Positions 16,289 to 34,746 of a stretch of DNA of 34,746 bases are shown in pieces (position 1 is the first letter of the stretch; each line of letters begins with the position of its first letter). The translations under genes were made by a program, and so were the position numbers. This DNA comes from a virus: UHGV virus genome UHGV-0079566. One strand, written 5' to 3'. The notes beneath the pieces were generated by a model, which did no database searches, was not told the DNA's origin, and saw nothing but the letters and a program-made list of their open reading frames with translations.

Positions 16289-16318
16289 TATAATTGTGTA
16301 CACATAACGAGTACACGA
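16289..16318 (+). promoter_or_regulatory. phd-doc promoter/operator region: -10 TATAAT followed by palindrome TGTGTACACA and a GTACAC half-site
   Basis: Read in sequence immediately upstream of phd; Phd autorepression via palindromic sites is established for P1. Confidence 0.5.
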
Positions 16319-16325
16319 GGTGTTT

Positions 16326-16927: not shown

Positions 16928-17111
16928 ATTAATGGCACGTAAATACAACAAATTGTCCCGTGAAGCGTTAAAGATGCTTCTTGATGGCGTGAGTCGCCGC
17001 GAGGTAAAGCAATACCTGGTTGGTAAGCAAATTGGTGCCAGGACCGCTATTGCTGTGTTATGCCGTCAGGAAATGGTTGTGCTTAAACAGAGAATGCCGG
17101 GCAGCAGATAA
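16911..17111 (+). CDS. Small protein downstream of doc (pdcA-like position); start may be ATG 16932
   Basis: ORF track; gene order doc-pdcA-pdcB-lpa recalled from P1. Confidence 0.4.
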
Positions 17112-17138
17112 AGCCCAATCAGTGATGAAAGGTGTGAT

Positions 17139-18182: not shown

Positions 18183-18183
18183 A

Positions 18184-18200
18184 ATTGCTCTAATGTATTG
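18184..18200 (+). promoter_or_regulatory. C1-operator-like site ATTGCTCTAATGTATTG upstream of lpa
   Basis: Read directly; P1 lpa is known to be C1-controlled. Confidence 0.55.
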
Positions 18201-18270
18201 CTATTTCTTTAATCGAGGGTATTATATTCGACGTTGATTAGTTGACATGGGCTAATCAGTAGGTGACAGG

Positions 18271-18723
18271 ATGTTACTTAACTGGCAGGGACGCCACTTC
18301 ATGGAAATAAATCACTCACGAATAACATCGTACGAGATTGCGGATTACATGATCCGCACTAAATCTCTTCTATCAGCGAAAGAACTCGCAGCAATTCTTG
18401 AAAAGGAATACCCGCATCTGGATGTCGATAAGCGCGATGTTTATCTGCGCTTAAAGGCTATCGCTGTGTCTAAGTATTCGTCTGTTTTGATTGATGACAG
18501 TACACGCCCACGTAGATTTCAGATCCACTCTCTGAATCCTGAATTCTTTCGCCGCAGCCGCGCTCCGCGCCGGTTTGATGAAAAACTCCAGAACGAACTC
18601 TATATGACGCAGGACGAAAAGGAACGCCGGGAGCACCAGCCTTGGGTGATGGCGCGTCAACTTTTCAATAAGGTGGTCCGTCAGCACCGTCATTACGGTA
18701 ATGCCACATCCGCACGTATCTGA
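18271..18723 (+). CDS. lpa: Lpa-like late promoter activator (150 aa)
   Basis: Position between pdcB and pacA with an upstream C1 operator, as in P1; AGGTGA Shine-Dalgarno. Confidence 0.65.
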   Translation: MLLNWQGRHFMEINHSRITSYEIADYMIRTKSLLSAKELAAILEKEYPHLDVDKRDVYLRLKAIAVSKYSSVLIDDSTRPRRFQIHSLNPEFFRRSRAPRRFDEKLQNELYMTQDEKERREHQPWVMARQLFNKVVRQHRHYGNATSARI

Positions 18724-21511: not shown

Positions 21512-22363
21512 CTATTGCGCGCTTTCGGGGTTGTCGTTTACTGGCTGCCCTTTCTTAGTTTTACGGCTGCGCGTAACTGATGCGGCTGATTTGACCTTTT
21601 TCTCTTCGCGAGTGATGGCAATTTGTTTTTTTACATTTTCAATATCTGCCAGGCGATATATTTTTGCCTGCGGCCAGCGGTCGCAGATGATCGGTTCTAT
21701 AGAGTCATAAAGGCTAAATTTTGCTTTCTCGAATTCACCGTTGATGATAATTCCATCACGGAGAGTTTCATCGCAGATAAACACACCACATAGCGGCACA
21801 TGGTAACTAACTGATTTACCATCATTGTAGTTAGGGCTACTAGAAATGTAATGGACGCGCAGCATTGTTTCGCTAAAGCCGTGTACGCGCATACGGAATT
21901 TTTCATCCTCCGGGTACTGCTTCATTAGCTCTTTTGTTGCTTCCAGGTTCTCTATGTATTTCGCACTGTGCTCATTGATCCCTGCGCTTTTCTGGATGCG
22001 AATGTCCTTATCAATCAGATGAATAATGCGGCCAGCGGTCATGTTGACGCTGTTCACAGCTTCTGTCTGATAAGTCGTAACCTTACGCACACCGCGAAGG
22101 ATGTTAGGCACTGGATATAAAATAGTCTTTGGGATATTGAGGTCTGGGTACTGTTCCAGTTCCCGCGCCATTAAAGTCCATTTATCAATTTCAGCCTGAA
22201 TGCTGTCAGTTTCTTTGAACGGCAGAACGACAACCGGGCGTACAGGACGACCGTCGCTGGCGGCATCAACGTGTTGGGCGCGTGCAACAGCTTTTTTTAG
22301 AAAGAGATCCCTGAAGCTGACGAACTCCTGGTACAGTTGTTCGCCGTAGACATAATTTATCAT
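21512..22363 (-). CDS. c1: C1 repressor of lysis (283 aa)
   Basis: 283-aa protein MINYVYGEQLYQEF... recognised as P1 C1; AGGAGG Shine-Dalgarno; convergent with pacB. Confidence 0.9.
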   Translation of the reverse strand: MINYVYGEQLYQEFVSFRDLFLKKAVARAQHVDAASDGRPVRPVVVLPFKETDSIQAEIDKWTLMARELEQYPDLNIPKTILYPVPNILRGVRKVTTYQTEAVNSVNMTAGRIIHLIDKDIRIQKSAGINEHSAKYIENLEATKELMKQYPEDEKFRMRVHGFSETMLRVHYISSSPNYNDGKSVSYHVPLCGVFICDETLRDGIIINGEFEKAKFSLYDSIEPIICDRWPQAKIYRLADIENVKKQIAITREEKKVKSAASVTRSRKTKKGQPVNDNPESAQ

Positions 22364-22386
22364 TGATCCTCCTCCAGAATTGACAT

Positions 22387-22427
22387 GGCCAACAACTCAC
22401 AGCGGATTACACTGGGAGTTGTTGGCC
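22387..22427. repeat. Inverted repeat (11-bp arms ggccaacaact / agttgttggcc, 19-nt loop) in the coi-c1 intergenic leader
   Basis: Read in sequence; no U-run after it on the minus strand. Confidence 0.6.
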
Positions 22428-22457
22428 ACCATTATAGAAGGATCCAACGAAAATAAT

Positions 22458-22474
22458 AGATTTATTAGTGCATT
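22458..22474 (-). promoter_or_regulatory. C1-operator-like site (14/17) overlapping the 3' end of coi, upstream of c1
   Basis: Plus-strand agatttattagtgcatt. Confidence 0.5.
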
Positions 22475-22683
22475 TATTGTGAGTCTGGCTGGTTAGTGGC
22501 CATGAGATATTCGATTGTGTCAGTGAGATCATCCAGGTCGTCTTGGGTGATGCGGTACTCCTGATTGGATATCTTTGAGTAGTGTTCAGCAATGGCGCGG
22601 GCAGCGTCGGTTTCGGCGGGGTCTACAGATAAAGCGTTAGAGCAATGTCTAACGTCGTCGATGGTTGGTGGAATGAAAGCCAT
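22474..22683 (-). CDS. coi: Coi, C1 inactivator (69 aa)
   Basis: 69-aa protein directly upstream of c1 on the same strand, as in P1. Confidence 0.8.
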   Translation of the reverse strand: MAFIPPTIDDVRHCSNALSVDPAETDAARAIAEHYSKISNQEYRITQDDLDDLTDTIEYLMATNQPDSQ

Positions 22684-22921
22684 AATTATGCCTCACTGTA
22701 TTGACAACACAGAGCCTGAAGCTCTGACCTACTGTTTCACCCATGATCCATGCTGGGGTAATCTAACAACATTGCGCTGTGTGTAAGATGAGCAATGCAT
22801 AGCTGTAATGCCGTTGTATAAGGTTTCCCTGTTTGCTCATTTCCTTCTGAGCCGCTCTACAACGCTGAAGACACATTAAATAGTGAATCCAAAGTCGTAT
22901 TACGAAACGGCGGCAAAACTA

Positions 22922-22938
22922 TAATTTATTAGAGCAAT
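22922..22938 (-). promoter_or_regulatory. C1 operator (complement ATTGCTCTAATAAATTA, 16/17) in the leftward promoter region for the coi-c1 operon
   Basis: Read directly. Confidence 0.7.
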
Positions 22939-23004
22939 TGTCAAACAACTATGAAAAACAATCCAGTTTTTGGCTGGTGGAGTGGGATTTTTCTCTCAAA
23001 ATTT

Positions 23005-23021
23005 ATTGCTCTAATAATTCT
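23005..23021 (+). promoter_or_regulatory. C1-operator-like site ATTGCTCTAATAATTCT followed by ttgattttta (same cassette as 7367-7393)
   Basis: Read directly, about 45 bp before loxP. Confidence 0.65.
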
Positions 23022-23064
23022 TGATTTTTATGCGCAACTGGACGTAAACTCCTCTTCGGACCTA

Positions 23065-23098
23065 ATAACTTCGTATAGCATACATTATACGAAGTTAT
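23065..23098 (+). other. loxP: loxP recombination site (ATAACTTCGTATA-GCATACAT-TATACGAAGTTAT)
   Basis: Exact canonical 34-bp loxP read in sequence, about 420 bp upstream of cre. Confidence 0.97.
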
Positions 23099-23168
23099 CT
23101 TAAGGGTTATTGAACATGATCAATTTACCTGTAAATCCATACAGTTCAATACCTTATCAGGTCAAATA

Positions 23169-23192
23169 GTGATCACTTGATCATTTGATCAA
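23169..23192 (+). promoter_or_regulatory. Cluster of three Dam sites (tgatcacttgatcatttgatca) between loxP and cre; candidate methylation-sensitive cre promoter region
   Basis: GATC at 23171, 23179 and 23187 read directly; Dam control of cre promoters is reported for P1. Confidence 0.55.
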
Positions 23193-23287
23193 GGTTGCGC
23201 TACGTAAAATCTGCGAAATGTTGGCGGTGTTAGTCCTACAGATTTCGCGTAGCGCACTTAGCACCACCAATCAATCAGAGGTGAAAA

Positions 23288-23509
23288 ATGGGATATTCAG
23301 CTGCTAAAGTGTCCACTCATCTTGAGCTTGAGAAAAACCGTGGTTACTGGCGGGCAAAAGGGTTTGAGCGTGATAGTTACCAACTGTCATTATCTCGCGG
23401 TGAAGAGAAAATAGAACGCACGCGCGGTCGCTGGCGTTTCTATGACGAGAACCATAAACAGGTAAAGGCAGAGCCGATCCTGTACACTTTACTTAAAACC
23501 ATTATCTGA
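23288..23509 (+). CDS. Small basic hypothetical protein (73 aa) between loxP and cre
   Basis: ORF track; strong GAGGTGA Shine-Dalgarno 5 nt upstream of the ATG; its stop lies 8 nt before the cre ATG. Confidence 0.4.
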   Translation: MGYSAAKVSTHLELEKNRGYWRAKGFERDSYQLSLSRGEEKIERTRGRWRFYDENHKQVKAEPILYTLLKTII

Positions 23510-23516
23510 GTGTTAA

Positions 23517-24548
23517 ATGTCCAATTTACTGACCGTACACCAAAATTTGCCTGCATTACCGGTCGATGCAACGAGTGATGAGGTTCGCAAGAATCTGATG
23601 GACATGTTCAGGGATCGCCAGGCGTTTTCTGAGCATACCTGGAAAATGCTTCTGTCCGTTTGCCGGTCGTGGGCGACATGGTGCAAGTTGAATAACCGGA
23701 AGTGGTTTCCCGCAGAACCTGAAGATGTTCGCGATTATCTTCTATATCTTCAGGCGCGCGGTCTGGCAGTGAAAACTATCCAGCAACATTTGGGCCAGCT
23801 AAATATGCTTCATCGTCGGTCCGGTCTGCCACGACCAAGTGACAGCAATGCTGTTTCACTGGTCATGCGACGGATCCGAAAAGAAAACGTTGATGCCGGT
23901 GAGCGTGCAAAACAGGCGCTGGCGTTCGAACGCACTGATTTCGACCAGGTTCGTTCACTCATGGAAAATAGCGATCGCTGCCAGGATATACGTAATCTGG
24001 CATTTCTGGGGATTGCTTATAACACCCTGTTACGTATAGCCGAAATTTCCAGGATCAGGGTTAAAGATATCTCACGTACTGACGGTGGGAGAATGTTAAT
24101 CCATATTGGCAGAACGAAAACGCTGGTTAGCACCGCTGGTGTAGAGAAGGCACTTAGCCTGGGGGTAACTAAACTGGTTGAGCGATGGATTTCTGTCTCT
24201 GGTGTAGCTGATGATCCGAATAACTACCTGTTTTGCCGCGTCAGAAAAAATGGTGTTGCCGCGCCATCATCCACCAGCCAGCTATCAACTCGCGCCCTGG
24301 AAGGGATTTTTGAAGCAACTCACCGATTGATTTACGGGGCAAAAGATGACTCTGGTCAGCGATACCTGGCCTGGTCTGGACACAGTGCCCGTGTCGGAGC
24401 CGCGCGAGATATGGCCCGCGCCGGAGTTTCAATACCGGAGATCATGCAAGCTGGTGGCTGGACCAACGTAAATATTGTCATGAACTATATCCGTAACCTG
24501 GATAGTGAAACGGGGGCAATGGTGCGCCTGCTGGAAGATGGCGATTAG
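23517..24548 (+). CDS. cre: Cre tyrosine recombinase (343 aa)
   Basis: Protein MSNLLTVHQNLPALPVDATSDEVRKNLMDMF... recognised as Cre, with loxP upstream. Confidence 0.97.
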   Translation: MSNLLTVHQNLPALPVDATSDEVRKNLMDMFRDRQAFSEHTWKMLLSVCRSWATWCKLNNRKWFPAEPEDVRDYLLYLQARGLAVKTIQQHLGQLNMLHRRSGLPRPSDSNAVSLVMRRIRKENVDAGERAKQALAFERTDFDQVRSLMENSDRCQDIRNLAFLGIAYNTLLRIAEISRIRVKDISRTDGGRMLIHIGRTKTLVSTAGVEKALSLGVTKLVERWISVSGVADDPNNYLFCRVRKNGVAAPSSTSQLSTRALEGIFEATHRLIYGAKDDSGQRYLAWSGHSARVGAARDMARAGVSIPEIMQAGGWTNVNIVMNYIRNLDSETGAMVRLLEDGD

Positions 24549-24565
24549 CCGTTCATTTGCGCTTG

Positions 24566-24582
24566 ATTGCTCTAATTATTTG
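24566..24582 (+). promoter_or_regulatory. C1-operator-like site ATTGCTCTAATTATTTG just downstream of cre
   Basis: Read directly. Confidence 0.6.
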
Positions 24583-24598
24583 ATATTTATGGTGACAC

Positions 24599-24910
24599 AT
24601 GCGGAAGGATTTCAAAATAGACGGAAAATATGTGGTGCTGTCTGTAAGCTCTCAAATTCAGTCACCATCTGTCATTGTCACCGTAAAGTTGAGCGATAGG
24701 ATGCCTGATATCGACTCGATATCTGTTGCGTTCCCCGTTAAAAGCATGCGGAGTGCTGAACATTTTGTGATGAATGCAACGGAGGAGGAAGCGCGGCGCG
24801 GGCTTACTAGAGTGATGGGGGAATTTGGCGAACTCCTGGGTAAGGTAAACAATGCCCTTTCAATCAGTTCAGCAAGGTCCAAAGCGTTAACAGCTTCCAT
24901 GATGAAATAA
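24599..24910 (+). CDS. Hypothetical protein (103 aa) in the cra (cre-associated) position
   Basis: ORF track; GGTGA Shine-Dalgarno; identity with P1 cra not verifiable from memory. Confidence 0.4.
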   Translation: MRKDFKIDGKYVVLSVSSQIQSPSVIVTVKLSDRMPDIDSISVAFPVKSMRSAEHFVMNATEEEARRGLTRVMGEFGELLGKVNNALSISSARSKALTASMMK

Positions 24911-24936
24911 AAAAAAGCCTGGCAAGGAGCCAGGCT
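24909..24936 (-). terminator. Hairpin (8-bp stem agcctggc / gccaggct, loop aagga) with an 8-nt U-run only on the minus strand
   Basis: Plus strand reads A8 + stem; the minus strand reads stem + T8. Confidence 0.5.
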
Positions 24937-25042
24937 GCACAAAAGAGCGGGTTTGTATTCCGCATCCAATCAATCAAGAAGGAGTATAGCACACAGGTAC
25001 TGAAGTGAAAAAATGTGATTCGCGATAAACAAAATATCTACC

Positions 25043-25072
25043 ATTGCTCTAATTGATTGCTATAATTTAGCC
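25043..25072 (+). promoter_or_regulatory. Tandem C1-operator-like sites (ATTGCTCTAATTGATTG and ATTGCTATAATTTAGCC), the second containing a -10 TATAAT; candidate ref promoter/operator
   Basis: Read directly; C1/Bof control of ref is established for P1. Confidence 0.6.
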
Positions 25073-25126
25073 GCAGTTTTTGTCAACTACGAAGACGTTG
25101 CCATTACTTCACTCCTTGACATCATT

Positions 25127-25152
25127 GGCGGCCATTAGGCCGCCTTTTTTTT
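25127..25152 (+). terminator. Terminator-like hairpin in the ref leader (7-bp GC stem ggcggcc / ggccgcc, loop atta, T8) ending 5 nt before the ref ATG
   Basis: Perfect inverted repeat plus tttttttt read directly. Confidence 0.65.
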
Positions 25153-25157
25153 GCCAT

Positions 25158-25718
25158 ATGAAAACAATCGAACAAAAACTTGAACAGCGCCGCGAGTGGC
25201 AGAAGGCAGCCAGAGAACGAGCGATCGCTCGGCAACGGGAAAAGTTGGCTGACCCCGCCTGGCGAGAATCGCAATATCAGAAAATGCGGGATTCTATCGA
25301 CCGCCGTATCGCTAAACAGAAAGAGCGCCCACCAGCCAGCAAAACGCGGAAAAGTGCGGTAAAAATAAAATCTCGTGGCTTGAAGGGGCGAACACCGACG
25401 GCGGAGGAACGGACCATCGCCAATGCTCTTGGCACTCTCCCCTGCATTGCCTGCTACATGCATGGAGTAATATCTGAAGAGGTGTCTCTGCACCATATCT
25501 CCGGTCGTACCGCGCCGGGTTGTCACAAAAAGCAATTGCCCCTTTGTAGATGGCACCACCAGCATGCTGCACCGGCTGAAGTAAGAGCAAAATACCCCTG
25601 GCTGGTCCCTGTTCATGCCGATGGTGTGGTTGGAGGCAAGAAAGAATTCACCTTGCTGAACAAGTCAGAGATGGAGTTACTGGCTGACGCCTATGAGATG
25701 GCAAACATCATGCACTAA
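25158..25718 (+). CDS. ref: Ref, RecA-dependent HNH-family nuclease (186 aa)
   Basis: Protein MKTIEQKLEQRREWQKAARERA... with C-terminal Cys/His HNH-like region; 186 aa as for P1 Ref. Confidence 0.85.
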   Translation: MKTIEQKLEQRREWQKAARERAIARQREKLADPAWRESQYQKMRDSIDRRIAKQKERPPASKTRKSAVKIKSRGLKGRTPTAEERTIANALGTLPCIACYMHGVISEEVSLHHISGRTAPGCHKKQLPLCRWHHQHAAPAEVRAKYPWLVPVHADGVVGGKKEFTLLNKSEMELLADAYEMANIMH

Positions 25719-25907
25719 TAAATATATTATTTTTAATGATAAATGATTGACAACTGACAAGTGACTTCAGTCAGAATCATCACATGCCCGGTACGGATGG
25801 ATCCCTTTTCAAATATTCCATGGACGGCACAGTCTGAGTACCGGGCGCTACCTTCAGTTGTATTGCTAAGCCGCCGCTGGTGGCTTTTCTTTTTTGTAGG
25901 GGGCGCT

Positions 25908-26549
25908 ATGGATAAGAAAATATGCGTTGTTTCGATGAGCGTCGGCAAACCGGCGTCAATGACTGCGGCATGGATCAATAACGAGCTGATAATGGCTGAG
26001 CGGACCAGCTACCCTGAACGCCGCCGCGATATGGAACTCCAGCTGCTGCGCGAATTGCGAGAAAAAGAGGAAAAGGGTTTTATCGTGCTGGTGGAAGAGG
26101 AAAACAGCTTTATTACTGGTCGAGTTGGCCAGCGTGTAAGGTTGCGCGATCCCTTCATGAACGGCAGGCCGGTACTAATTGAGGCAATGCAGATTTATAA
26201 GGAGCTGGAACGCCAGAAAGCAATCAAGTTACCGCGCAAGGAATCCGGCAAATACATCCTCCACCAAAGCATCTTCGATTCCGAACACGACAAAAAAGGC
26301 GATGAATTTTTCAACATCAACTGGAGCGAAATAACGACAGAGCATGTTCTGACGTTACTATGTTGCTTTGCGACGGAATACAACAACGTTGCCAGCGCAG
26401 ACTACATCAGGGCAATGGCTGGAGAAGTTGAGGCACGCCAGGAACCATCGTTACTAAGCCCTCTGATTAACATAATTCGCGGAACCCAAACGCTGGCACA
26501 AAAACAGGTGCCTAAGGGAGTATTAACAGGAAAAGGAAATTATCTATAA
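25908..26549 (+). CDS. Hypothetical protein in the mat position (213 aa from ATG 25908; ORF is open from GTG 25761)
   Basis: ORF track frame; AGGGGG Shine-Dalgarno before ATG 25908; gene order cre-cra-ref-mat recalled from P1. Confidence 0.5.
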   Translation: MDKKICVVSMSVGKPASMTAAWINNELIMAERTSYPERRRDMELQLLRELREKEEKGFIVLVEEENSFITGRVGQRVRLRDPFMNGRPVLIEAMQIYKELERQKAIKLPRKESGKYILHQSIFDSEHDKKGDEFFNINWSEITTEHVLTLLCCFATEYNNVASADYIRAMAGEVEARQEPSLLSPLINIIRGTQTLAQKQVPKGVLTGKGNYL

Positions 26550-26605
26550 ACGTCAATGCATTAGGGTATACTTCTCCGTAGAACTATAAGTAAATGGAGT
26601 AAGTA

Positions 26606-27910
26606 ATGAGCGAGTATATAGAAATTGCCTATGCAGCAGCTACACATAGGCTGTGCTTTCTTACAGGCACTGGATTTTCAAAGGCTGTTTCTGATGATAA
26701 AGCCCCAAGTTGGCAATCTTTATTGGAGCAACTGTGCGGTTTATTGAAGGATGGTGACTCACTCAAAGAGGAATTATTTCCTGATGGAAAAGCAAAAGAC
26801 CTTAGCCTTGAAGAGGCTGCTCAGGTTATTGCACTAAAATTTATACTTTCGGGGAAAAATATTTACCAGGAGATTGAGAAAATCATAGCCTCAATCGAAC
26901 TTGATCCATCAATTGAATATATTCAAGACTTTTTCAAAGAAAACACATTTAAAGTAATTACGACAAATTATGACAAGTTAGCAGAAAAACTGGCTGGAGA
27001 GAATCGAACGTGTACAATCACCCCCGGCCTGCCAATTCCAAAATATAATTGTGAGGTTAAAGTCTACCATGTTCACGGCTCTATAGACTCCCCATCAGAT
27101 ATGGTTGTTACTAGCGAGGATTATTTCAGATTTATAAATGGTAATTCTTACTTTTCAAATAAACTAAGCACAGTTCTACATGAAAACACTATTGTTATCC
27201 TTGGCTATTCTCTAAGTGACGCGAACCTCAAGGCGATTATAAATGAATATAAGGTATTTTCACGGGACAACGTAATGTCCTCCAATATTTTCCTTATTTC
27301 CCGAGGGAAACTATTGCAACCTATTAAAGATTACTATTTTTCCTGCTTTGGGATTAGGGTTATAGATAAAACAGAGGTGTCTGATTTCTTTAGAAAACTT
27401 AACAAGAAAATTCCAGAAGCAAAAAAAATAAAAGACAAATTGAGGCACTCAATCAAATCGGTAATAAAAAACGGAAGAGAGTATAAAATAGAGTTCTTGA
27501 AGTTAGAGGATTCTTTTTATCATATCATTTCCTCCATTTCATCATCTGGATATAGCTGGAATGATGAAAAGGTATTAAATGTTTTTTGTGATATAATAGA
27601 TAAAAAAATAGATCTTACTAAAGAGTCTGGCGCATGGGAGCAGTATGAACACCTGGCAAAATGGCTTATTTATTTCGGTAGTTTATTTGAAGTAAAAGGA
27701 ACCAACTTTGAGAAAAAATACATACATGCGGTTGAACACTCAATGACTTATATGAATAAACCTTACGAAACAGGCTACTCATGGCGAGCATATCTAGCCT
27801 GGAAAACAAAATGGCCTTCACTCACAGCATCTAACCGCTCTCTTATTAAGAGTAAGATGGAAGAAATCCCGCTACAACAGATTCACGATATTATATCTAA
27901 GTTTATATAG
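26606..27910 (+). CDS. SIR2-like (ThsA/DSR-type sirtuin, NAD-binding) domain protein with an uncharacterised alpha-helical C-terminal half (434 aa); AT-rich foreign gene
   Basis: Motifs in order: CFLTGTGFSKA (glycine loop), ITTNYDKL (catalytic Asn), VYHVHGS (catalytic His), IVILGYSLSDANL. GGAG Shine-Dalgarno upstream. Markedly lower G+C than flanks by eye. Confidence 0.8.
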   Translation: MSEYIEIAYAAATHRLCFLTGTGFSKAVSDDKAPSWQSLLEQLCGLLKDGDSLKEELFPDGKAKDLSLEEAAQVIALKFILSGKNIYQEIEKIIASIELDPSIEYIQDFFKENTFKVITTNYDKLAEKLAGENRTCTITPGLPIPKYNCEVKVYHVHGSIDSPSDMVVTSEDYFRFINGNSYFSNKLSTVLHENTIVILGYSLSDANLKAIINEYKVFSRDNVMSSNIFLISRGKLLQPIKDYYFSCFGIRVIDKTEVSDFFRKLNKKIPEAKKIKDKLRHSIKSVIKNGREYKIEFLKLEDSFYHIISSISSSGYSWNDEKVLNVFCDIIDKKIDLTKESGAWEQYEHLAKWLIYFGSLFEVKGTNFEKKYIHAVEHSMTYMNKPYETGYSWRAYLAWKTKWPSLTASNRSLIKSKMEEIPLQQIHDIISKFI

Positions 27911-27918
27911 TATATTTA

Positions 27919-27947
27919 TCTCCGGCCTAATCTCCCTAGGCCGGAGA
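27919..27947. terminator. Hairpin (10-bp stem tctccggcct / aggccggaga, 9-nt loop) between the convergent SIR2-like gene and lxc
   Basis: Read directly; weak T/A tracts on both sides. Confidence 0.5.
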
Positions 27948-27951
27948 GTTC

Positions 27952-28200
27952 TTAATCAGCATTCAGGAGCAATGCGTTATCTATGATGATCTGCTCCCAT
28001 TCCTCGAATGCCCGATCGCGGACGCCCTGGGGAACGCTGTTAGTTTTGAAATCGACGACCGTCCGCCATTTTCCGTCCGGACGGTACATGCGCAGAGCTT
28101 TACTTCCCCCTTCCCTGCGCACCTCAACGTTATGCTTGTCAGCAAACTCTTGTAATGCTCGTAGCGTCCCATGCTTTACTGTGTAGTATCGCTTTTTCAA
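27952..28200 (-). CDS. lxc: Lxc/Bof-like C1 corepressor (82 codons, TTG start)
   Basis: 82-codon ORF with a TTG start overlapping the upstream stop (TTGA); I recall P1 bof/lxc as an 82-codon TTG-initiated gene in this neighbourhood. Confidence 0.55.
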   Translation of the reverse strand: MKKRYYTVKHGTLRALQEFADKHNVEVRREGGSKALRMYRPDGKWRTVVDFKTNSVPQGVRDRAFEEWEQIIIDNALLLNAD

Positions 28201-28637
28201 GTTTTCTCTCCAGCCTGTGCTAAGGCTTCAACTTCCAAATCGTAAGACTCAAACTCATAGTCCTGGTCGTCAACCTCTTCAGGCACTGGCAGTAAATGCC
28301 AGGCTGAGTATATCTGACCATTATCAAAACGCTCCTGGCTGTAGAGCGTCGCGGCTATGAGTGTCAGCGCCGGGCGGTCATAACGGTAAATTTTGCGAAC
28401 GTCACGGTCAACGAGACGACCGAAATTACCATAACCGCGCTCCAGTAATAATTTTTTAATTTCCGGCCAGTATGGGCCATAGCTGCGGTACAGGCGGGGA
28501 TTTTTCAGTAATCGCCCGCGTAGCCCTGACAGGAAGAAATCAACGTATTCGTCTTCTGTCTTTCCTAACAACGCTGTACGCAGTACCGCCTCAAGATATG
28601 TTTTATTCGGTTTTATTGTATCAGATAGTGTGGCCAT
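28197..28637 (-). CDS. Hypothetical protein (146 aa) immediately upstream of lxc (possibly ulx-like)
   Basis: ORF track; translationally coupled to lxc. Confidence 0.5.
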   Translation of the reverse strand: MATLSDTIKPNKTYLEAVLRTALLGKTEDEYVDFFLSGLRGRLLKNPRLYRSYGPYWPEIKKLLLERGYGNFGRLVDRDVRKIYRYDRPALTLIAATLYSQERFDNGQIYSAWHLLPVPEEVDDQDYEFESYDLEVEALAQAGEKT

Positions 28638-28670
28638 ATTATGCGACGCCCGGCGAACCGGGCGCTCCTG

Positions 28671-29612
28671 TTATGCGTATTGTTGGATGACGGCCAGAAC
28701 GTCCGCCACGTTGTGTTTTGTCTCGATAATCCACCAGTTACCCGGGAAATCGCTGTTCTTCGCCTTCGCTGGCAGCCAGCGAGCGCCGAATTTCGCCTTG
28801 ATTGCGTCTTTTGCACGGAAAAGAACTCCTTTCATGCCTGAGGCTTCCTGAAGCCCAAATACCTCGCCAGCGGCGAATTTTGGTGCGTACATCATCTTCA
28901 GGTCGGCGGTGGATACGCGATAATTCAGACCAAGAGACTGAGCTATGCTGGTGGCATCACCCTGTATTGATGATAACTCTTCTTGTTTCTCGTTTCTGGC
29001 GGCAATTTCTTCCTCCGTGATGTTGCCAAGGGCCAGGTTTATCCGATCAGCGTCGGCCTGTTTCTCTTCATCGGTGCGCCCGGCAAGAACCGTGTTAATT
29101 CTCTGCAATATCTCCACATGATTCTTGCGCATGCTGAGCAATTCCGGCGTAACCTCGTTAAGATCCACCAGCCCAAGGATGGCAAGGTCGGAAAACATTG
29201 ATACCAGGTTGTAGGTCATGCGATAGCTGAGTTGGCCATAGGCTGATGGCAACTGCACCGAATCCATTTTATAGGCATCCATAAATTTAGAGCCGTCGTT
29301 TACGACATCCGCAATTGCAGGTGTGATTTTCCCTGTGGTGGCGGCCTCCCTGATTGCTGTTACCCACGATTGAGTCAGCGCGGCGACTGCATGATTCAGA
29401 TTGGCTTCCCGTTCTGCTGCGATGCGCGCGCTTGCTGCGTCCATTGCCTGCTTGATCTCGTCTTTATTGCTGTAAATGCCAATGGTGCCAAACTGTGCTG
29501 TGGTGATCTCATAATCTGACGCCCGGAACTCATTGGTACCGAAAATGGCATTGGTGACTTCAAGTTCAGAATCCCCGTTACGAGTAGACCCCTGGCTTGT
29601 TTTTTCCGGCAT
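28671..29612 (-). CDS. Hypothetical protein (313 aa) between darB and lxc
   Basis: ORF track; protein-like composition; same strand as darB. Confidence 0.55.
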   Translation of the reverse strand: MPEKTSQGSTRNGDSELEVTNAIFGTNEFRASDYEITTAQFGTIGIYSNKDEIKQAMDAASARIAAEREANLNHAVAALTQSWVTAIREAATTGKITPAIADVVNDGSKFMDAYKMDSVQLPSAYGQLSYRMTYNLVSMFSDLAILGLVDLNEVTPELLSMRKNHVEILQRINTVLAGRTDEEKQADADRINLALGNITEEEIAARNEKQEELSSIQGDATSIAQSLGLNYRVSTADLKMMYAPKFAAGEVFGLQEASGMKGVLFRAKDAIKAKFGARWLPAKAKNSDFPGNWWIIETKHNVADVLAVIQQYA

Positions 29613-29777
29613 TCTGGCGATCGCATCCGCTATTTTCTCCTAAATTGCTTCAGGGGATAGCGTATCTCCGTATGACGCGATTACATCGCCATAATTGGAG
29701 CCAAACAATTCAACCAGGAATGTTTCTGCCGAACGGATCTGGCGGTTATTCCCTTCCGACATCATACCAAGCACCCA

Positions 29778-32700
29778 TTATGCAATTGACGACTTCAGCG
29801 CGCCGTCACGGCGATCCGGGTAAACCGCATGCTTCAGTGGGTCCGTATAGGTGCCAACAAAATCAATGCTATAGCCTGACTCTGTAGTCTGAACGCCGTA
29901 TGAGTCAGTGATTTTGATCATGCCGCGCTGCTGGAAACGGTAGAAATCGTCACAGGAAATGATGTCGTTAATCCCGGCGATGGAGACGCCACCACTGATT
30001 TTCTGCATAACAGCATCTTCATCGGGAGTTACATCCACCTGTTTATCCAGCGTCTTCACATCCCAGTTACCCGATTTGGTGCCTTTGAAGGTAAAGATGA
30101 TCTCCACGTCTGCGCGCTGGCTGTCGAAGTCCAGCGACTTAATGCGAACGATATCACCGGCACAATCGTAGTATTGGCCTACACGCCATGAGCGATCGCC
30201 GATAACAAGGAACTCATTCGCATGGTTAACCAGATCAGGATCAACATCCAGAATGCCTTTATTTATTGCATCCTCCACCAGCGGGCGCAGGCGTTTGATA
30301 TCCGTCGCGGCCTTCTGAGTACGGTTCAATAATTTCTCATAGCGGGAGATGGCCTGAGAGATATTAGCCTTGCGCTGAATGGCGCTTTTCAACGACGCGC
30401 GATACTGTGCTAACAACGTACGGTCTGTGTGATGGACGCTACCCCAGCGGGCTTTCCAGTCTGCGTTATCAGCTGCTTTGGCCATTACCGCCTGTTTGAA
30501 TTTAGCTACCTCGGCGGTGGTCTTTTCAAGTTCCGCTTTGTTTCGCTCTAATTCAGCGGTAAGTACCTCCACATCCTCGCCAGCTGCGTGCTGCGCCTTG
30601 ATGTAGTTCTGAAGGTCGATAGTAGCCTGTTCTTTCTGGCGAGCGCGTTGCGCGGCTTTCGCCTTATCCATTTGAACCTGCATCATTGCCAGACGTTCGC
30701 CATCATCCTTAGCGGTATACATCTGCATTTCGATCATATCGTTGGCGTCGGCGTTCTCCATTTCTGACTTATCTGAACGGAGGATATCGGAGATCCAGCC
30801 TGCTTTACGCTTCAGCGTCTTCAGTCGGTATTCATCGAAAGAACCCTTGCCGCAGTAGTAATGAACGCGAACGCTTGCACGGTTGGAGCCAACTCGGGCA
30901 CCGCGACCGTTACGCTGTGCGATACTGGCTGGTGTCCATGGCAACGTCAGATGATGGATGTCAGTCGTTCCTCGATGCAGGTTGATACCCACCTCTGCCT
31001 TTTTGTTGCAGATGATGATCGGAGTCCGGCCCTCCTGGAAGTCTGCTGCAATCTTTTCCAGACCGCCCAACGACATTTCATTTTGCTGCGCGATATAGGC
31101 GTCATACAGAGCCATTTGCTCGTTGTATTTCGCTATCTGTGCATCTGTTGGTTCATCCGGTAACTCTTTCGGCGGTTTAACCGCTTTCAGTTTCTTACCG
31201 GTTTTACCTGCCTCGGCAACCGTCTGAGCATTCAGGATCCCCACCTTTGAAGGTTCAAGGTTAAGAGCATTGCAGATAATGCGCTTGAGCTTCTGGTGCT
31301 GCGTTTTTTCGTCCGTGAAGATGATTTGCTTACCTTCCGGGAAAAACTCCTTCAGCGTGGCGATCAGCTTCGCGTATTTGGGTGTAACGGGGTGAGTTAC
31401 GGTCTGTTCGTCAATGCCAAACCTGGCCAGGCGCTTATTCACTTCCTGCTCGAACGCTTCCGGAACCTGCAACTGAATAAACTCGCCCTTATCTATCAGG
31501 GAGTATTGCGATTGCTGCGTGATTGAATCATCACTGTCGTCGTCTTCGCTGGTGGCTTGTTTAGGCAAACTGTCCGCCAGCTGCTGCACCGCATCGGCGT
31601 ACTCCGGCAGGAAACGATAGGTGATCCGGCGATAGTACAGGTCCATGTCAGTACATACGCGGTCCATATCCCTGATTATTGAGAAGATCGGACGGGCTTT
31701 CTCGTGCTCAATCACGCCGTCTTCATTGGCCGAGGTCGTTACGCCATTGTTGGCTTTGGCCGCCGCTTCCGCCTGCTGACGCAATTCTTCATACGCCGCC
31801 AGTTGTTCTTCAGTAAGAGGTGCATCCTGCTGGTGTTCGTCCAGTTCCGGGATCTCCACGGTATCCTTAACGTCTTCCGCCGTTTTAAGCGTTGTCCAGC
31901 GATGGAATATGCCGCGCAGCGCATCAAGGTTTTCAAAGCCCACCAGCGCCATTTTTTCTTCAACTTCACCGCTGATTTTCTGTACCGTTTCCAGCCTGGT
32001 CTTGCCGAAGAATTTAACGAAGTCATCAGGACCGTAGATCCCCATCTTCTGCCAGTATTCCTTCGGCAGAACATGAGAAAGCATGTTGTATGCATCGATC
32101 GGGGTGTTAACGACTGGCGTTGCAGTCAGGAGAACCGGTCCACGCCCACCATTCTTTTTCATCAGGTACGCGTTTTTGATTGCCATATCTCGCGCCGATT
32201 GCGCCACCGCGCTGGTGGGCAGATAGGCCAGCTGTGACGCTTCGCGACCATTTTTATAGCTATTGCGGTAGTTGTGGCCTTCGTCAGCAATCACGCTGTC
32301 GAAGCCCATATCCTCAAAGTACGGATACTTCTCTGCTTTTTCGGTACCGGTATCTGAATACTCCGACAATACCCGGCGACGCGCCGCCTCTTTGCGGTGG
32401 GAGTCGGAGTCCATTGCGCTGGCTACGCGCCCGGCGGCAACGAAGTCATAAAGCATGTCTTGTGCATGCTCATCTACGGTGTCATCACGTAGCGGAATGC
32501 GGGCGTATTGTTCTTTGGTAAACACGACTGCACGGTAATTTGAGTGCGGGATCGCGTTCATCCGCGCCGTGATAGTGGCTTCATCTGCCAGCTTAAGAGC
32601 ATCGCGCATAACTGGAGTGCCATCAGTACCAAGAACAGGTTTACCGTTCTCATTGAGCACCGGCACCTGGCGAATCTGATCGCCATCCATCAGCACATCA

Positions 32701-34746
32701 AGACCGACGAACAAGTAGTTACTGAATGCCTCTTCACTCAGGAATTCTTTTGCTTCGTAATACCAATTTTCCAGCACTGATTTAGGCACTACATACGCAG
32801 TACGGGTGGAGCGACCGTTCTCATAGTTGAACGCCTCAAGCGCCAGCGCGGTCGTGGTTTTACCCAGCCCGGTGCCGAAGCCCAGGATGCCGCGCCCATC
32901 TTCGGACAGTCGGCGCACCTCGCTATTCTGGTAATCAAATGGCTGGCGCTTACCGCTTAATCCCTTCAACCCAAGCGGATCGCCAGAGTGTTCATACGGG
33001 ATATTGCTATTGAACACATCGTTGTATTTGGCAACCAGCTCATCGTAGCGATCGTGCGTCTTGATCCACTTATTGAACTGGTCCTCAAGCAGTGCCATCT
33101 GCTCGCGGTAGCCGTTCGCCGTCGCGCTATCTTTGCCACCGATACGCGCACCATTGAGATACTTTTCCAGCTGTGCCGGGAACCCGGTCGCGTTTTCACC
33201 TGATTTACGGTCCCACTCGTAGCGAATCTCACCTGTTTCTTTATCCTTGCGCTGGACGACACCGTATCGGTGCCCGACGAACAGACCATCACCACCGTGA
33301 TAGGTGTCAGAAACCATTTCGTCGCCTTCCAGCTGCACTGACTGCACATAGCGCAGATCCGGATAGCCGTTTTCCTGCAAAAATTCCAGAATGACGGAAC
33401 GGTCGAACCAACGGCTATTGAGCTTAAACCGGATATTCTCTGCTGGCGTCTTGATGCGCTTCTCTTCGATAGCTGCCAGCTGATTAAGGACGTTGTTCTT
33501 TACTGGACCGTCGGGGAGTGTGGCGAGGAATTCCTGTTTTGGAGCCACTATCTCGTTAATGTCGCCGCTGGTGGCGCGGGCGAACGGAACAATCCCGCCA
33601 TACGGTGAAACCGCAATACCAGGGGTGCTGGCCAATAAATTAAGCAACTCTTCATCACTGGCTGGCAGTTCGCCGGTAAACGCAAGGCGGAAATCATCGA
33701 GCTGGATTGGATCGCGGGTGAGATCGCTATAGAGATAACGCAGGGTGTCCTGATAGCTGGTGGAGTCATAACTTGCGCTGGAATCATGCGTAACCAGCTT
33801 CCCTGTCAGCTCGTCAGAAATAGTGCCATCCAGCTTAATTGCACCACGGAAAGCAAACCAGGCGCGCGCACCGCTCCCCGACAATTTCGCTATCGGACCG
33901 CGACCGGGGGTACCAAAACGGGCAATCTCTGCCTGCAAACGGGATACCAGAGAAAGGCGCTGCTGTTCGATTTGTTCAGCACTATGCCCGGCGGCCTTCA
34001 TGTCCTGATATTCAATTAACATCCGGCCAATCATCGCCCCGCGATACAAGCGTTCACGGTATTTTTCAGGCTGGCTGTTAATCCAGTCCACCAGCTGCAC
34101 CATATCGTCGCTGATTGATGTGGTGTACTTATCGCGGACATTTGCCATCTGGGTAAATGTCATGCCGAGACGGCCTTCTGTTGTAGTCAGGTTACGCTGA
34201 AGAGCCTCCCAGCTATCCGCGCCATAACTGGCAGCATCGATCTTAAGTTCCTTCCCGGCATCAGCTTCAATCCAGCGACCACCAGCATATTTTTGCCATA
34301 CGCCATTAATCAGGCGCATTTCCCCTTCACCAACAACGTCTGCGGTCGGTGACGGTTCAGCCATATCGAGCAAAGACCAGTCGATACGGCTTTCGAAACG
34401 ATGAATCAGCTTCGCTTTAAGAGCCTGGTTATCAATCTGACCGTCGGCACGAACCTCAATACGCCCCTGGAAGCCCTTTTCCTGGGTGCCATGAACAAAC
34501 CGGCGGCCGTCCTTTTCAAACCACTTGCCAGAAATAAACGTTGGCCAAAGCACATTTGCCGATTCGAGAGTGCTTTCATCCACCAGGGGGATTTTCTCAG
34601 CCATCTCTGCCGGATGTTTGCGCATCAGCACCACATCAACAACTGTACTGGTCCCGTTTGCGTCAAAAGTACCGGTAGGCAAGCGGTGGGCACCAAGAAA
34701 TTCAGCTTTCCGTGATAGGCGCAGGCGTAACCGCTTCATGTTTGAA
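29778..34746 (-). CDS. darB: DarB-like antirestriction protein, partial (C-terminal 1653 codons in window; N-terminus beyond the window end); contains a DExH superfamily-2 helicase core
   Basis: Helicase motifs LGFGTGLGKTT (Walker A), VIADEGHNYRN (DEGH), LLTATPVVN, QRNGRGARVG (motif VI). Frame is open past 34746; giant size and the lxc neighbourhood are consistent with P1 darB. Confidence 0.75.
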   Translation of the reverse strand, partial: SNMKRLRLRLSRKAEFLGAHRLPTGTFDANGTSTVVDVVLMRKHPAEMAEKIPLVDESTLESANVLWPTFISGKWFEKDGRRFVHGTQEKGFQGRIEVRADGQIDNQALKAKLIHRFESRIDWSLLDMAEPSPTADVVGEGEMRLINGVWQKYAGGRWIEADAGKELKIDAASYGADSWEALQRNLTTTEGRLGMTFTQMANVRDKYTTSISDDMVQLVDWINSQPEKYRERLYRGAMIGRMLIEYQDMKAAGHSAEQIEQQRLSLVSRLQAEIARFGTPGRGPIAKLSGSGARAWFAFRGAIKLDGTISDELTGKLVTHDSSASYDSTSYQDTLRYLYSDLTRDPIQLDDFRLAFTGELPASDEELLNLLASTPGIAVSPYGGIVPFARATSGDINEIVAPKQEFLATLPDGPVKNNVLNQLAAIEEKRIKTPAENIRFKLNSRWFDRSVILEFLQENGYPDLRYVQSVQLEGDEMVSDTYHGGDGLFVGHRYGVVQRKDKETGEIRYEWDRKSGENATGFPAQLEKYLNGARIGGKDSATANGYREQMALLEDQFNKWIKTHDRYDELVAKYNDVFNSNIPYEHSGDPLGLKGLSGKRQPFDYQNSEVRRLSEDGRGILGFGTGLGKTTTALALEAFNYENGRSTRTAYVVPKSVLENWYYEAKEFLSEEAFSNYLFVGLDVLMDGDQIRQVPVLNENGKPVLGTDGTPVMRDALKLADEATITARMNAIPHSNYRAVVFTKEQYARIPLRDDTVDEHAQDMLYDFVAAGRVASAMDSDSHRKEAARRRVLSEYSDTGTEKAEKYPYFEDMGFDSVIADEGHNYRNSYKNGREASQLAYLPTSAVAQSARDMAIKNAYLMKKNGGRGPVLLTATPVVNTPIDAYNMLSHVLPKEYWQKMGIYGPDDFVKFFGKTRLETVQKISGEVEEKMALVGFENLDALRGIFHRWTTLKTAEDVKDTVEIPELDEHQQDAPLTEEQLAAYEELRQQAEAAAKANNGVTTSANEDGVIEHEKARPIFSIIRDMDRVCTDMDLYYRRITYRFLPEYADAVQQLADSLPKQATSEDDDSDDSITQQSQYSLIDKGEFIQLQVPEAFEQEVNKRLARFGIDEQTVTHPVTPKYAKLIATLKEFFPEGKQIIFTDEKTQHQKLKRIICNALNLEPSKVGILNAQTVAEAGKTGKKLKAVKPPKELPDEPTDAQIAKYNEQMALYDAYIAQQNEMSLGGLEKIAADFQEGRTPIIICNKKAEVGINLHRGTTDIHHLTLPWTPASIAQRNGRGARVGSNRASVRVHYYCGKGSFDEYRLKTLKRKAGWISDILRSDKSEMENADANDMIEMQMYTAKDDGERLAMMQVQMDKAKAAQRARQKEQATIDLQNYIKAQHAAGEDVEVLTAELERNKAELEKTTAEVAKFKQAVMAKAADNADWKARWGSVHHTDRTLLAQYRASLKSAIQRKANISQAISRYEKLLNRTQKAATDIKRLRPLVEDAINKGILDVDPDLVNHANEFLVIGDRSWRVGQYYDCAGDIVRIKSLDFDSQRADVEIIFTFKGTKSGNWDVKTLDKQVDVTPDEDAVMQKISGGVSIAGINDIISCDDFYRFQQRGMIKITDSYGVQTTESGYSIDFVGTYTDPLKHAVYPDRRDGALKSSIA

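What the first reader, a model, noticed from the sequence alone, without database searches (positions are those of the whole stretch)
25719..29765. The mat-lxc interval lacks the res/mod genes expected from P1 and holds different cargo
The gene order cre, cra-like, ref, mat, [cargo], lxc, ..., darB matches the P1 backbone as I recall it, but there is no type III res/mod pair in the window. The interval is bounded by a strong -35 TTGACA upstream of mat and a convergent hairpin at 27919-27947, and it contains the single AT-rich SIR2-like gene. This is the architecture of a cargo-exchange hotspot. Two backbone genes (146 aa, 313 aa) plus a possible 41-aa ORF (29640-29765) between lxc and darB remain functionally unassigned.
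Basis: partly seen in the sequence, partly recalled or inferred. Interest (0 to 1): 0.55.

Follow-up and report, generated by a model that had tools for sequence, protein, structure and literature searches.

The report
Known P1 cargo hotspot holding SIR2
In this P1-like phage-plasmid, the slot between genes mat and lxc holds one SIR2-type, probably NAD-degrading anti-phage gene instead of phage P1's restriction enzyme genes. The slot is an already published swap site and the same gene sits there in over a hundred public plasmids, so the finding is correct but ordinary.

Summary
The core observation is right. The window is a P1-like phage-plasmid. Window 23082-26543 aligns to P1 1-3462 and 27952-34746 to P1 9750-16544. 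P1's res-mod::IS5 block (3469-9749) is replaced by 1,402 bp carrying one 434-aa SIR2_2 gene (35.5% GC against about 50% in the flanks). A perfect 11-bp hairpin follows the gene. No res/mod exists anywhere in the window.

This is not new. The interval is the published P1 hotspot "RD-1", with the same breakpoints and the same mat/lxc flanks. The SIR2 cargo occurs at this slot in about 65 PLSDB plasmids, and a 59%-identical second allele occurs in others. Other elements carry RelA/SpoT, YaaC, DUF2971, EAL or type III R-M there, or nothing (39 bp).

Flank identity decays towards the cargo and there are no repeats, which points to exchange by homologous recombination. SIR2 and res-mod can also be stacked in one element.

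The "unassigned" ORFs are known genes. The 146-aa ORF is Ulx (Dar antirestriction). The 313-aa and about 41-aa ORFs are fragments of darB, cut by two in-frame stop codons.

The SIR2 protein has intact NADase motifs, a DSR2/ThsA-like fold and a short HEAT-like C-terminal domain, with no partner gene. It is most likely a single-protein abortive-infection NADase, but this is untested.

The parts
23065..23098 (+). loxP site. It anchors the P1 coordinate system; P1 position 1 is window 23082.
   Evidence: Exact 34-nt loxP match, 0 expected by chance. P1 annotation. Alignment.
25747..25752 (+). TTGACA, the -35 of Pmat. This is backbone, not a hotspot boundary.
   Evidence: Sequence. Corresponds to P1 2666-2671, annotated as the Pmat -35, next to the C1 operator Omat and the late promoter LPmat.
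25797..26549 (+). mat (maturation control), the left homology arm. Its last 50-200 nt are allele-specific and linked to the cargo.
   Evidence: Collinear with P1 mat 2716-3468. PHROG 1837. Identity to other elements falls from 96-100% to 38-93% in the last 50-150 nt.
26550..26605 (+). 56-nt leader of the SIR2 gene, with GGAG at 26596-26599. It is shared by the two diverged SIR2 alleles of P1-like plasmids.
   Evidence: 98% identical between the SIR2a and SIR2b plasmids, although the CDS is only 40-76% identical. Absent upstream of chromosomal homologues. No consensus sigma-70 promoter was found here.
26606..27910 (+). Cargo: 434-aa SIR2_2 (SIRim-type) protein. It has an N-terminal NADase-type SIR2 domain (about residues 1-255) and a C-terminal HEAT-like alpha-solenoid (about 256-434).
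27919..27947 (.). Perfect 11-bp GC-rich hairpin between the convergent SIR2 and lxc stops. It is a probable transcription stop or RNA end, and it belongs to the cargo module.
   Evidence: Homology to P1 resumes only at 27952. Other cargo alleles carry their own, different hairpin at the same place.
27952..28200 (-). lxc (modulator of C1), the start of the right homology arm.
   Evidence: Collinear with P1 lxc 9750-9998. PHROG 2160. Identity to other elements is 86-96% in its first 100-150 nt and then 98-100%.
28197..28637 (-). ulx (146 aa), a Dar antirestriction component.
   Evidence: Collinear with P1 ulx 9995-10435. PHROG 1629 'Ulx-like anti-restriction' at 4.4e-66. Role taken from PMC12810830.
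28671..34746 (-). darB, running off the window end and interrupted by two in-frame stop codons.
   Evidence: Ungapped alignment to P1 darB, with 27 aa differences in 2,023 codons plus two stops. The 313-aa ORF matches the C-terminus of DarB PHROG 1685.
29640..29642 (-). TAG stop in darB (CAG in P1; Gln1933 in P1 numbering).
   Evidence: Not found in 654 E. coli or 640 PLSDB records. Present in two gut-metagenome contigs.
29778..29780 (-). TAA stop in darB (AAA in P1; Lys1887 in P1 numbering).
   Evidence: Present in metagenome contig L020 but absent from L019, which differs from the window by this one base.

Best explanation
The interval is the known recombination hotspot RD-1 of P1-like phage-plasmids. 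It is a slot between two convergent, conserved backbone units: mat on the left and the lxc-ulx-darB operon on the right. Accessory modules, mostly defence-type, are swapped in this slot.

In this element the slot holds one self-contained module: a 56-nt leader, a 434-aa SIR2 gene and a terminator-like hairpin.

**How the cargo is exchanged (inferred).** Exchange is by homologous recombination between co-resident P1-like elements, with mat and lxc/ulx/darB as homology arms. It is not site-specific insertion.

**What the cargo does (inferred).** The protein is a single-protein abortive-infection effector of the defence-type (SIRim) SIR2 class. Its HEAT-like C-terminal domain would recognise a component of an infecting phage. 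That would release the N-terminal SIR2 domain to hydrolyse NAD+, which stops the infected cell and protects the P1-carrying population, as the much larger DSR2 does.

**Shown versus inferred.** Shown here: the homology breakpoints, the cargo repertoire, the motif conservation, the fold similarity and the lack of a partner gene. Inferred: NADase activity, the trigger, the anti-phage phenotype and the time of expression.
For: **Hotspot**
- The breakpoints coincide with P1 3462/3469 and 9749/9750. These are the published RD-1 limits.
- At least eight different fillings, including an empty 39-bp site, lie between the same flanks.

**Recombination**
- Identity to other elements is 96-100% across mat and falls only in its last 50-200 nt. 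It is 86-96% in the first 100-150 nt of lxc and 98-100% beyond.
- No direct or inverted repeats flank the cargo.
- No junction motif is shared between alleles.
- One element carries a 101-bp duplicated lxc 3' fragment between SIR2 and res-mod. This is a footprint of recombination joining two cargo modules.

**Defence reading**
- Pfam SIR2_2 hit.
- GTGFS, the N121/D123 xxNxD motif and H157 are invariant in 44 homologues of 52-60% identity.
- There is no Cys tetrad; the Cys residues are at 17, 44, 136, 149, 247 and 328 only. This is the SIRim signature described in 10.1101/2024.09.18.613514.
- The best solved-structure matches are the anti-phage NADases DSR2 (TM 0.70 on the SIR2 domain), ThsA and KomC.
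- The C-terminal domain is a HEAT-like solenoid.
- No partner gene is conserved across the E. coli, Pseudoalteromonas, Paracidovorax, Halomonas and Pantoea contexts. Those contexts are a prophage end next to an integrase, a defence-island-like cluster, or a site next to a dGTPase-like HD gene.
- Neighbouring fillings of the same slot are P1's type III R-M and PADLOC candidates PDC-S33 and PDC-S31.
- Two alleles of 59% identity occupy the same slot.
Against: - No experiment exists on this family. PHROG 7567 is 'unknown function', and I found no paper linking SIR2 to P1-like elements.
- PADLOC and NCBIfam models match only the SIR2 domain, far below family cut-offs: Dsr2 30.6 bits against 1400.
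- No consensus sigma-70 promoter lies between mat and SIR2. The gene may therefore be read from Pmat/LPmat, which in P1 are C1-repressed and late. A gene silent in the lysogen would fit a classical prophage defence role poorly.
- Homologous recombination is inferred from sequence patterns only.
Confidence: 0.72

Rival explanations
1. The SIR2 gene is a lytic-phase phage function rather than a lysogen defence. It would be co-transcribed with mat after C1 repression is lifted or from the late promoter. It would then act during P1 development, for example by excluding co-infecting phages late, manipulating host NAD metabolism, or countering an NAD-dependent host process.
For: The gene is co-directional with mat and starts 56 nt after its stop. 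No consensus promoter was detected in between. In P1, mat is driven by a C1-controlled promoter and a late promoter. The 56-nt leader is specific to the P1 context and conserved across two diverged alleles.
Against: Homologues sit alone in chromosomal islands and at prophage ends with unrelated upstream sequences, so the protein is not tied to P1 development. Other fillings of the slot are classical lysogen-expressed defence (res-mod) or lie on the opposite strand. Weak promoter-like hexamers (TTAACA-16-TATAAA at 26523-26550) exist by eye.
Confidence: 0.15
2. The cargo is a site-specifically inserted mobile cassette (transposon, integron-like cassette or integrase-driven island) with defined ends.
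For: The breaks are sharp at the lxc stop codon in several alleles. Cre/loxP and Ref lie about 3 kb upstream.
Against: There are no target-site duplications, terminal inverted repeats or shared junction motifs. The interval holds no recombinase. The left break is graded inside mat, not sharp. The empty site shows no scar related to the SIR2 module.
Confidence: 0.05
3. The protein is a genuine sirtuin-type protein deacylase, as RefSeq names it, that regulates host or phage proteins. Alternatively it is a plasmid-addiction toxin that takes over the post-segregational role of res-mod.
For: RefSeq calls it 'SIR2 family NAD-dependent protein deacylase'. res-mod is regarded as contributing to P1 plasmid stability (PMC6906374).
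Against: There is no Zn-binding Cys tetrad, which sirtuin deacylases need and SIRim NADases lack. The Pfam match is to SIR2_2, not to the sirtuin family. The nearest structures are all NADase defence effectors. No antitoxin-like partner is present.
Confidence: 0.05

Closest known systems
P1 hotspot RD-1, also called 'variable region 1' (res-mod), of P1-like phage-plasmids (Venturini et al. 2019, PMC6906374; PMC9603915; PMC10865808 Fig. 5)
   Same: Same locus, same flanking genes (mat, lxc) and same limits (P1 3,469-9,749). The cargo has low GC and differs between elements.
   Different: None of the three papers read here mentions a SIR2 cargo. PMC9603915 has zero occurrences of the term, and literature searches for SIR2 with P1-like elements found nothing relevant. 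This window adds one more filling, one that is common in databases.
DSR2 (defence-associated sirtuin 2, Bacillus subtilis)
   Same: Single-polypeptide SIR2 NADase followed by a helical-repeat domain. It is the best structural match of the SIR2 domain (TM 0.70, about 20% identity). The catalytic Asn and His align.
   Different: DSR2 is about 1,000 aa with a long C-terminal sensor, against 434 aa here with about 180 helical residues. The score is 30.6 bits against the NCBIfam Dsr2 cut-off of 1,400. The trigger, oligomeric state and activity are unknown here.
ThsA of Thoeris
   Same: Closest solved sequence relative of the SIR2 domain (7uxt at 3e-9; PADLOC ThsA at 7e-18).
   Different: There is no SLOG or Macro ligand-binding domain and no ThsB/TIR partner. 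The C-terminus is an alpha-solenoid.
relAP1 (RelA/SpoT-domain cargo of P1-like elements)
   Same: Occupies the same mat-lxc slot on the same strand and ends in a hairpin before the lxc stop.
   Different: The protein family is unrelated (PADLOC PDC-S33). It has a published phenotype, the cost of blaTEM-116. The SIR2 cargo has none.
Defence hotspots of P2-like prophages and P4-like satellites (Rousset et al. 2022; recalled from my own knowledge, not read here)
   Same: A fixed slot between conserved phage genes holds diverse, low-GC, single- or few-gene defence systems that are exchanged between related elements.
   Different: The element family differs. The comparison rests on memory and was not tested here.

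Membership tests
P1 RD-1 (res-mod) hotspot | Lies between mat and lxc, with homology to P1 breaking at about P1 3469 and 9749 | tested here: met
   The alignment breaks at P1 3462 and 9750. The published limits are 3,469-9,749.
P1 RD-1 (res-mod) hotspot | Content differs between otherwise collinear P1-like elements | tested here: met
   Eight fillings, including an empty site, in the loci fetched. Spread listing of 821 PLSDB matches.
P1 RD-1 (res-mod) hotspot | Cargo of lower G+C than the backbone | tested here: met
   35.5% against 48-52%.
Defence-type SIR2 (Pfam SIR2_2 / SIRim subfamily) | Profile match above the curated cut-off | tested here: met
   PF13289 at 83.8 bits against a cut-off of 24.5.
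Defence-type SIR2 (Pfam SIR2_2 / SIRim subfamily) | GxG and xxNxD motifs and the catalytic His are present; the Zn-binding Cys tetrad is absent | tested here: met
   G21-T-G23, T119-T-N-Y-D123 and H157 are invariant. No CxxC pairs. Criteria taken.
Defence-type SIR2 (Pfam SIR2_2 / SIRim subfamily) | NAD+ hydrolysis and phage protection | not testable with these tools
   Needs enzymology and plaque assays.
DSR2 | Full-length match to the equivalog model; about 1,000-aa architecture | tested here: not met
   NF041819 at 30.6 bits against 1,400, covering residues 117-212 only. PADLOC Dsr2 matches positions 121-240 of 1222 only. Length is 434 aa.
Thoeris (ThsA/ThsB) | SLOG or Macro C-terminal domain in ThsA and an adjacent TIR protein ThsB | tested here: not met
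   The C-terminus is all-alpha and HEAT-like. SIR2 is the only gene in the interval. No partner is conserved in other genomes.
SIR2-HerA, Lamassu (LmuA-SIR2/LmuB) and pAgo-SIR2 | Adjacent HerA ATPase, SMC-like LmuB or short pAgo partner | tested here: not met
   No such ORF lies between mat and lxc. LmuA matches positions 21-221 of 433 only. A DUF87 gene in the Halomonas island is two genes away and not conserved elsewhere.
PADLOC candidate PDC-S25 | Match over most of the 517-aa profile | tested here: not met
   Only profile positions 127-283 (the SIR2 core) match.
Type III restriction-modification (EcoP1I-like res/mod) | Res and Mod genes present | tested here: not met
   blastn of P1 3469-9749 and tblastn of Res and Mod against the whole window gave no hit.
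P1 Dar antirestriction operon (ulx, darB) | Intact ulx and intact 2,255-codon darB | tested here: not met
   ulx is intact. darB carries TAA at codon 1887 and TAG at codon 1933. Its 5' end lies outside the window.

The most novel reading that the evidence does not exclude
The 434-aa SIR2 plus short HEAT-like protein (PHROG 7567) may be a previously untested, minimal single-protein DSR2-like immune sensor-effector. The family has at least 665 clusters across Proteobacteria. P1-like phage-plasmids would spread it through a standard expression socket: a 56-nt leader shared by two alleles of 59% identity. On this reading RD-1 is a compact defence-gene hotspot. Its other uncharacterised fillings (YaaC plus a 169-aa gene, EAL, DUF2971, the split RelA/SpoT pair) would be candidate new systems.
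Probability: 0.45. Interest if true: 0.45.

Novelty: already known. Interest (0 to 1): 0.22.

Why it matters
The practical gain is in annotation and triage.
- The locus can be labelled 'RD-1 hotspot, SIR2 cargo'.
- Three 'unknown' ORFs can be relabelled as ulx and as fragments of a decaying darB.

P1-like phage-plasmids are common in clinical and livestock E. coli. What they carry in RD-1 therefore bears on phage therapy and on competition between mobile elements.

If the SIR2 protein proves to be an autonomous NADase sensor, it would be one of the smallest of its kind and easy to study. That would be an incremental addition to a well-populated class, not a new principle.

Tried and rejected
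- **Repeats at the junctions.** I looked for direct or inverted repeats, target duplications and shared junction motifs. Only short chance matches and the hairpin turned up.
- **Rfam.** A scan of 25000-30000 gave no hits.
- **Deposited phage genomes.** DNA and protein searches for the cargo found no phage record with this family. Only short SIR2-core hits appeared in Streptococcus and Mycolicibacterium phages.
- **Named defence systems.** The SIR2 protein could not be assigned to one. PADLOC and NCBIfam match the SIR2 core only.
- **Literature.** Searches for SIR2 with P1-like elements or phage-plasmids, and for accession WP_000006034, found nothing relevant. The iLund4u hotspot preprint does not mention P1 or SIR2.
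- **Sequencing error in darB.** I considered that the two darB stops might be errors. I rejected this because an identical contig and a one-stop intermediate exist in independent metagenome assemblies.
- **Statistics on the stops.** I considered that two nonsense changes among 16 panel-private substitutions might be significant. It is not: a rough binomial estimate, done by hand, gives about 0.2.
- **Promoter for SIR2.** The consensus scan found none in the leader. By eye there are only weak candidates.

Full report
**What the window is.** The region around the finding is a P1-like phage-plasmid. Megablast of window 22000-34746 finds P1, P7, RCS47, SJ46 and other Punavirus records at 97-98% identity, always in two pieces. 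Against the P1 reference, window 23082-26543 aligns to P1 1-3462. Window 27952-34746 aligns to P1 9750-16544 without a single gap. An exact loxP site lies at 23065-23098. Using the P1 annotation, the genes are:
- cra 23288-23509
- cre 23517-24548
- c8 24599-24910
- ref (ending at 25718)
- mat 25797-26549
- then, on the minus strand, lxc 27952-28200, ulx 28197-28637 and darB from 28671 to beyond the window end.

**Checking the observation.**
- P1 3469-9749 holds res, mod::IS5 and their promoters. It has no counterpart in the window. blastn of that block, and tblastn of Res and Mod, against all 34,746 bases give nothing.
- In its place are 1,402 bp (26550-27951) with one ORF, 26606-27910 (+), 434 aa, matching Pfam SIR2_2 at 1.6e-23.
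- Its G+C is 35.5% against 48-52% for the flanking genes.
- The TTGACA at 25747-25752 is real and is the annotated -35 of Pmat.
- The hairpin at 27919-27947 is a perfect 11-bp stem (dG -20.8 kcal/mol, z -4.7).

The observation therefore stands. The variable segment is much narrower than the coordinates given, and its left edge is the 3' end of mat, not the mat promoter.

**The hotspot is already published.**
- Venturini et al. (PMC6906374) list 'RD-1', P1 3,469-9,749 res-mod(IS5), as one of five hot spots. In three P1-like plasmids res-mod is replaced there by ORFs unique to each element, and the hot spots are associated with low-GC loci.
- PMC9603915 lists res-mod as highly variable region 1 among 54 P1-like phage-plasmids.

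**The repertoire I fetched agrees with the literature.**

| Element | Filling of the mat-lxc slot |
|---|---|
| pD72C | empty site, 39 bp between mat and lxc |
| vB_EcoM-673R5 | RelA/SpoT pair |
| pE16EC0930-2 | YaaC plus a 169-aa gene |
| pSCKLB684-mcr | DUF2971 |
| pHH194M-140K | EAL |
| P1, P7 | type III R-M |
| pYJ4-b | second SIR2 allele, 59% identical, same slot |

**The SIR2 filling is common.**
- 124 PLSDB plasmids have a match, 65 of them full-length, mostly at 98-99.9% identity.
- 133 of 5,426 complete E. coli genomes have a match, 69 of them full-length.
- RefSeq annotates it as 'SIR2 family protein'.
- No record in the GenBank phage collection carries it, at either DNA or protein level.

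**How the cargo moves.** I aligned 900 nt on each side of the slot in ten elements with different fillings.
- Identity to the window is 96-100% through most of mat and drops only in its last 50-200 nt.
- On the other side, identity is 86-96% in the first 100-150 nt of lxc and 98-100% beyond.
- The cargo is not flanked by direct or inverted repeats.
- The sequences just inside the junctions are unrelated between alleles. The one common feature is that each module ends with its own GC-rich hairpin just before the lxc stop codon.

This pattern is what homologous recombination in the conserved arms predicts: linked polymorphism decaying with distance, and no att or transposon ends. The step is inferred, not shown.

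One element, pO26_98E11_1, has the order mat, SIR2, hairpin, a 101-bp copy of the lxc 3' end, res, mod, lxc. SIR2 and res-mod are therefore not strict alternatives. Modules can be stacked, and the duplicated lxc fragment is a footprint of the joining event.

**The 'unassigned' ORFs.**
- The 146-aa ORF is Ulx: P1 gp010, and PHROG 1629 'Ulx-like anti-restriction' at 4e-66. Ulx is one of six Dar proteins that protect incoming P1 DNA from type I restriction (PMC12810830 citing Piya et al. 2017).
- The 313-aa ORF and the short ORF at 29640-29774 are not genes of their own. Translating 28671-34739 in one frame gives P1 DarB with 27 substitutions and two internal stops. These are TAA at 29778-29780 (AAA in P1; codon 1887 by my count from the P1 coordinates) and TAG at 29640-29642 (CAG in P1; codon 1933).
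- The 313-aa ORF matches positions 1956-2278 of 2278 of the DarB PHROG.
- Neither stop occurs in 654 E. coli or 640 PLSDB records that carry this segment.
- The stops are real. One gut-metagenome contig is 100% identical to the window over 6,067 nt. Another, from a different study, differs by a single base over 6,942 nt and has only the TAG. darB is therefore decaying stepwise in this lineage.

**What the SIR2 protein is.**
- It belongs to a large, full-length-conserved family: 665 clusters found, mostly 431-437 aa and 52-61% identical, in Vibrio, Halomonas, Pseudoalteromonas, Pantoea, Klebsiella, Pseudomonas, Delftia, Paracidovorax and others.
- In 44 members the NAD-binding G21-T-G-F-S25, the T119-T-N-Y-D123 motif and H155/H157-G-S are invariant. 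So is a set of C-terminal Trp residues (W344, W353, W393, W399, W403).
- The protein has no Zn-binding Cys tetrad. With the GxG and xxNxD motifs, this is the signature of the immune 'SIRim' NADase branch rather than of deacylating sirtuins (10.1101/2024.09.18.613514).
- By sequence, the closest solved proteins are ThsA and DSR2, then KomC.
- The AlphaFold model (pLDDT 84.8) matches the DSR2 SIR2 domain best (TM 0.70, about 20% identity), followed by ThsA and KomC.
- No partner gene is conserved. In E. coli chromosomes a 56%-identical homologue is the last gene of a prophage, next to the integrase. In Halomonas it lies among HNH, DUF4145, HSDR_N, DUF87, FRG and STAND genes. In Pantoea it lies next to a dGTPase-like HD gene. 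In Paracidovorax it sits in a variable island.
- It is not a member of DSR2, Thoeris, SIR2-HerA, Lamassu or PDC-S25. Only the SIR2 core matches those models, and the defining partners or domains are absent.

**Most likely mechanism, and its weak point.** I commit to this model: a single-protein abortive-infection NADase, in effect a miniature DSR2. The helical domain senses a phage component and frees the SIR2 domain to deplete NAD+. This protects the population that carries the phage-plasmid against competing phages. The motifs, fold, stand-alone genomic contexts and the defence-type neighbours in the same slot (P1's R-M; PADLOC candidates PDC-S33 and PDC-S31) support the model. Nothing here shows activity.

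The weak point is expression. No consensus sigma-70 promoter lies between mat and the gene. By eye there are only weak hexamers, TTAACA-16-TATAAA at 26523-26550. The gene could therefore be read from Pmat/LPmat, which in P1 are C1-repressed and late. The 56-nt leader is 98% identical between the two SIR2 alleles, although their coding sequences are only 40-76% identical, and it is absent from chromosomal homologues. It thus looks like a P1-specific expression socket whose regulation is unknown.

**Verdict.** The particular cargo is already present and annotated in more than a hundred public plasmids. The secondary claims about unassigned genes are wrong. What remains open is the biology of this SIR2 family and of the other RD-1 fillings.

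Noticed in passing
window 29640-29642 and 29778-29780 (darB, minus strand); loci L019 and L020: darB carries two private in-frame stops, TAG at codon 1933 and TAA at codon 1887. A gut-metagenome contig (ENA ERZ27229390) is identical to the window. Another (ERZ909728/ERR688561) differs by one base and has only the TAG. The antirestriction gene is therefore being lost stepwise in this lineage.
   Followed up: yes
L005 (NZ_AP027182.1, pO26_98E11_1) 11076-18515: The SIR2 module and type III res-mod are stacked in one RD-1 interval, separated by a 101-bp duplicate of the lxc 3' end. The same element lacks most of ulx and all of darB downstream of lxc.
   Followed up: partly
window 26550-26605; L013 4547-4602: The 56-nt leader upstream of SIR2 is 98% identical between two SIR2 alleles whose proteins are only 59% identical. 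It is absent upstream of chromosomal homologues. It may be a P1-specific expression socket.
   Followed up: partly
Right junction of RD-1 in L002, L004, L006 and L013, and window 27919-27947: Every cargo allele ends with a GC-rich hairpin just before the lxc stop. The empty site, the RelA/SpoT allele and the YaaC allele share a GCCCGG...CCGGGC core. The two SIR2 alleles have different hairpins.
   Followed up: partly
L002 5130-6229 (vB_EcoM-673R5 RD-1 cargo): The RelA/SpoT cargo is annotated as two ORFs of 182 and 180 aa. They match the N- and C-terminal halves of one PADLOC candidate profile (PDC-S33, 349 positions). This is either a split gene or a frameshift in that record.
   Followed up: no
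window 1-22000: Only 72-78% of this stretch is covered by the best P1-like phage records, in 6-12 pieces. The window therefore contains further variable regions that I did not examine, probably other published hotspots.
   Followed up: no
window 23063-23098 (query positions 1064-1099): Lactococcus phage Q33 records and a Pseudobutyrivibrio plasmid give 100% matches of 34-36 nt here. The stretch is loxP, so those records probably carry a loxP scar or vector remnant rather than true homology.
   Followed up: partly
L017 (Halomonas daqingensis) 3100-17311: The Halomonas SIR2 homologue lies in a cluster of HNH, DUF4145, HSDR_N, DUF87 (HerA-like), FRG and STAND (AAA_16-TPR) genes. This looks like a defence island.
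   Followed up: no
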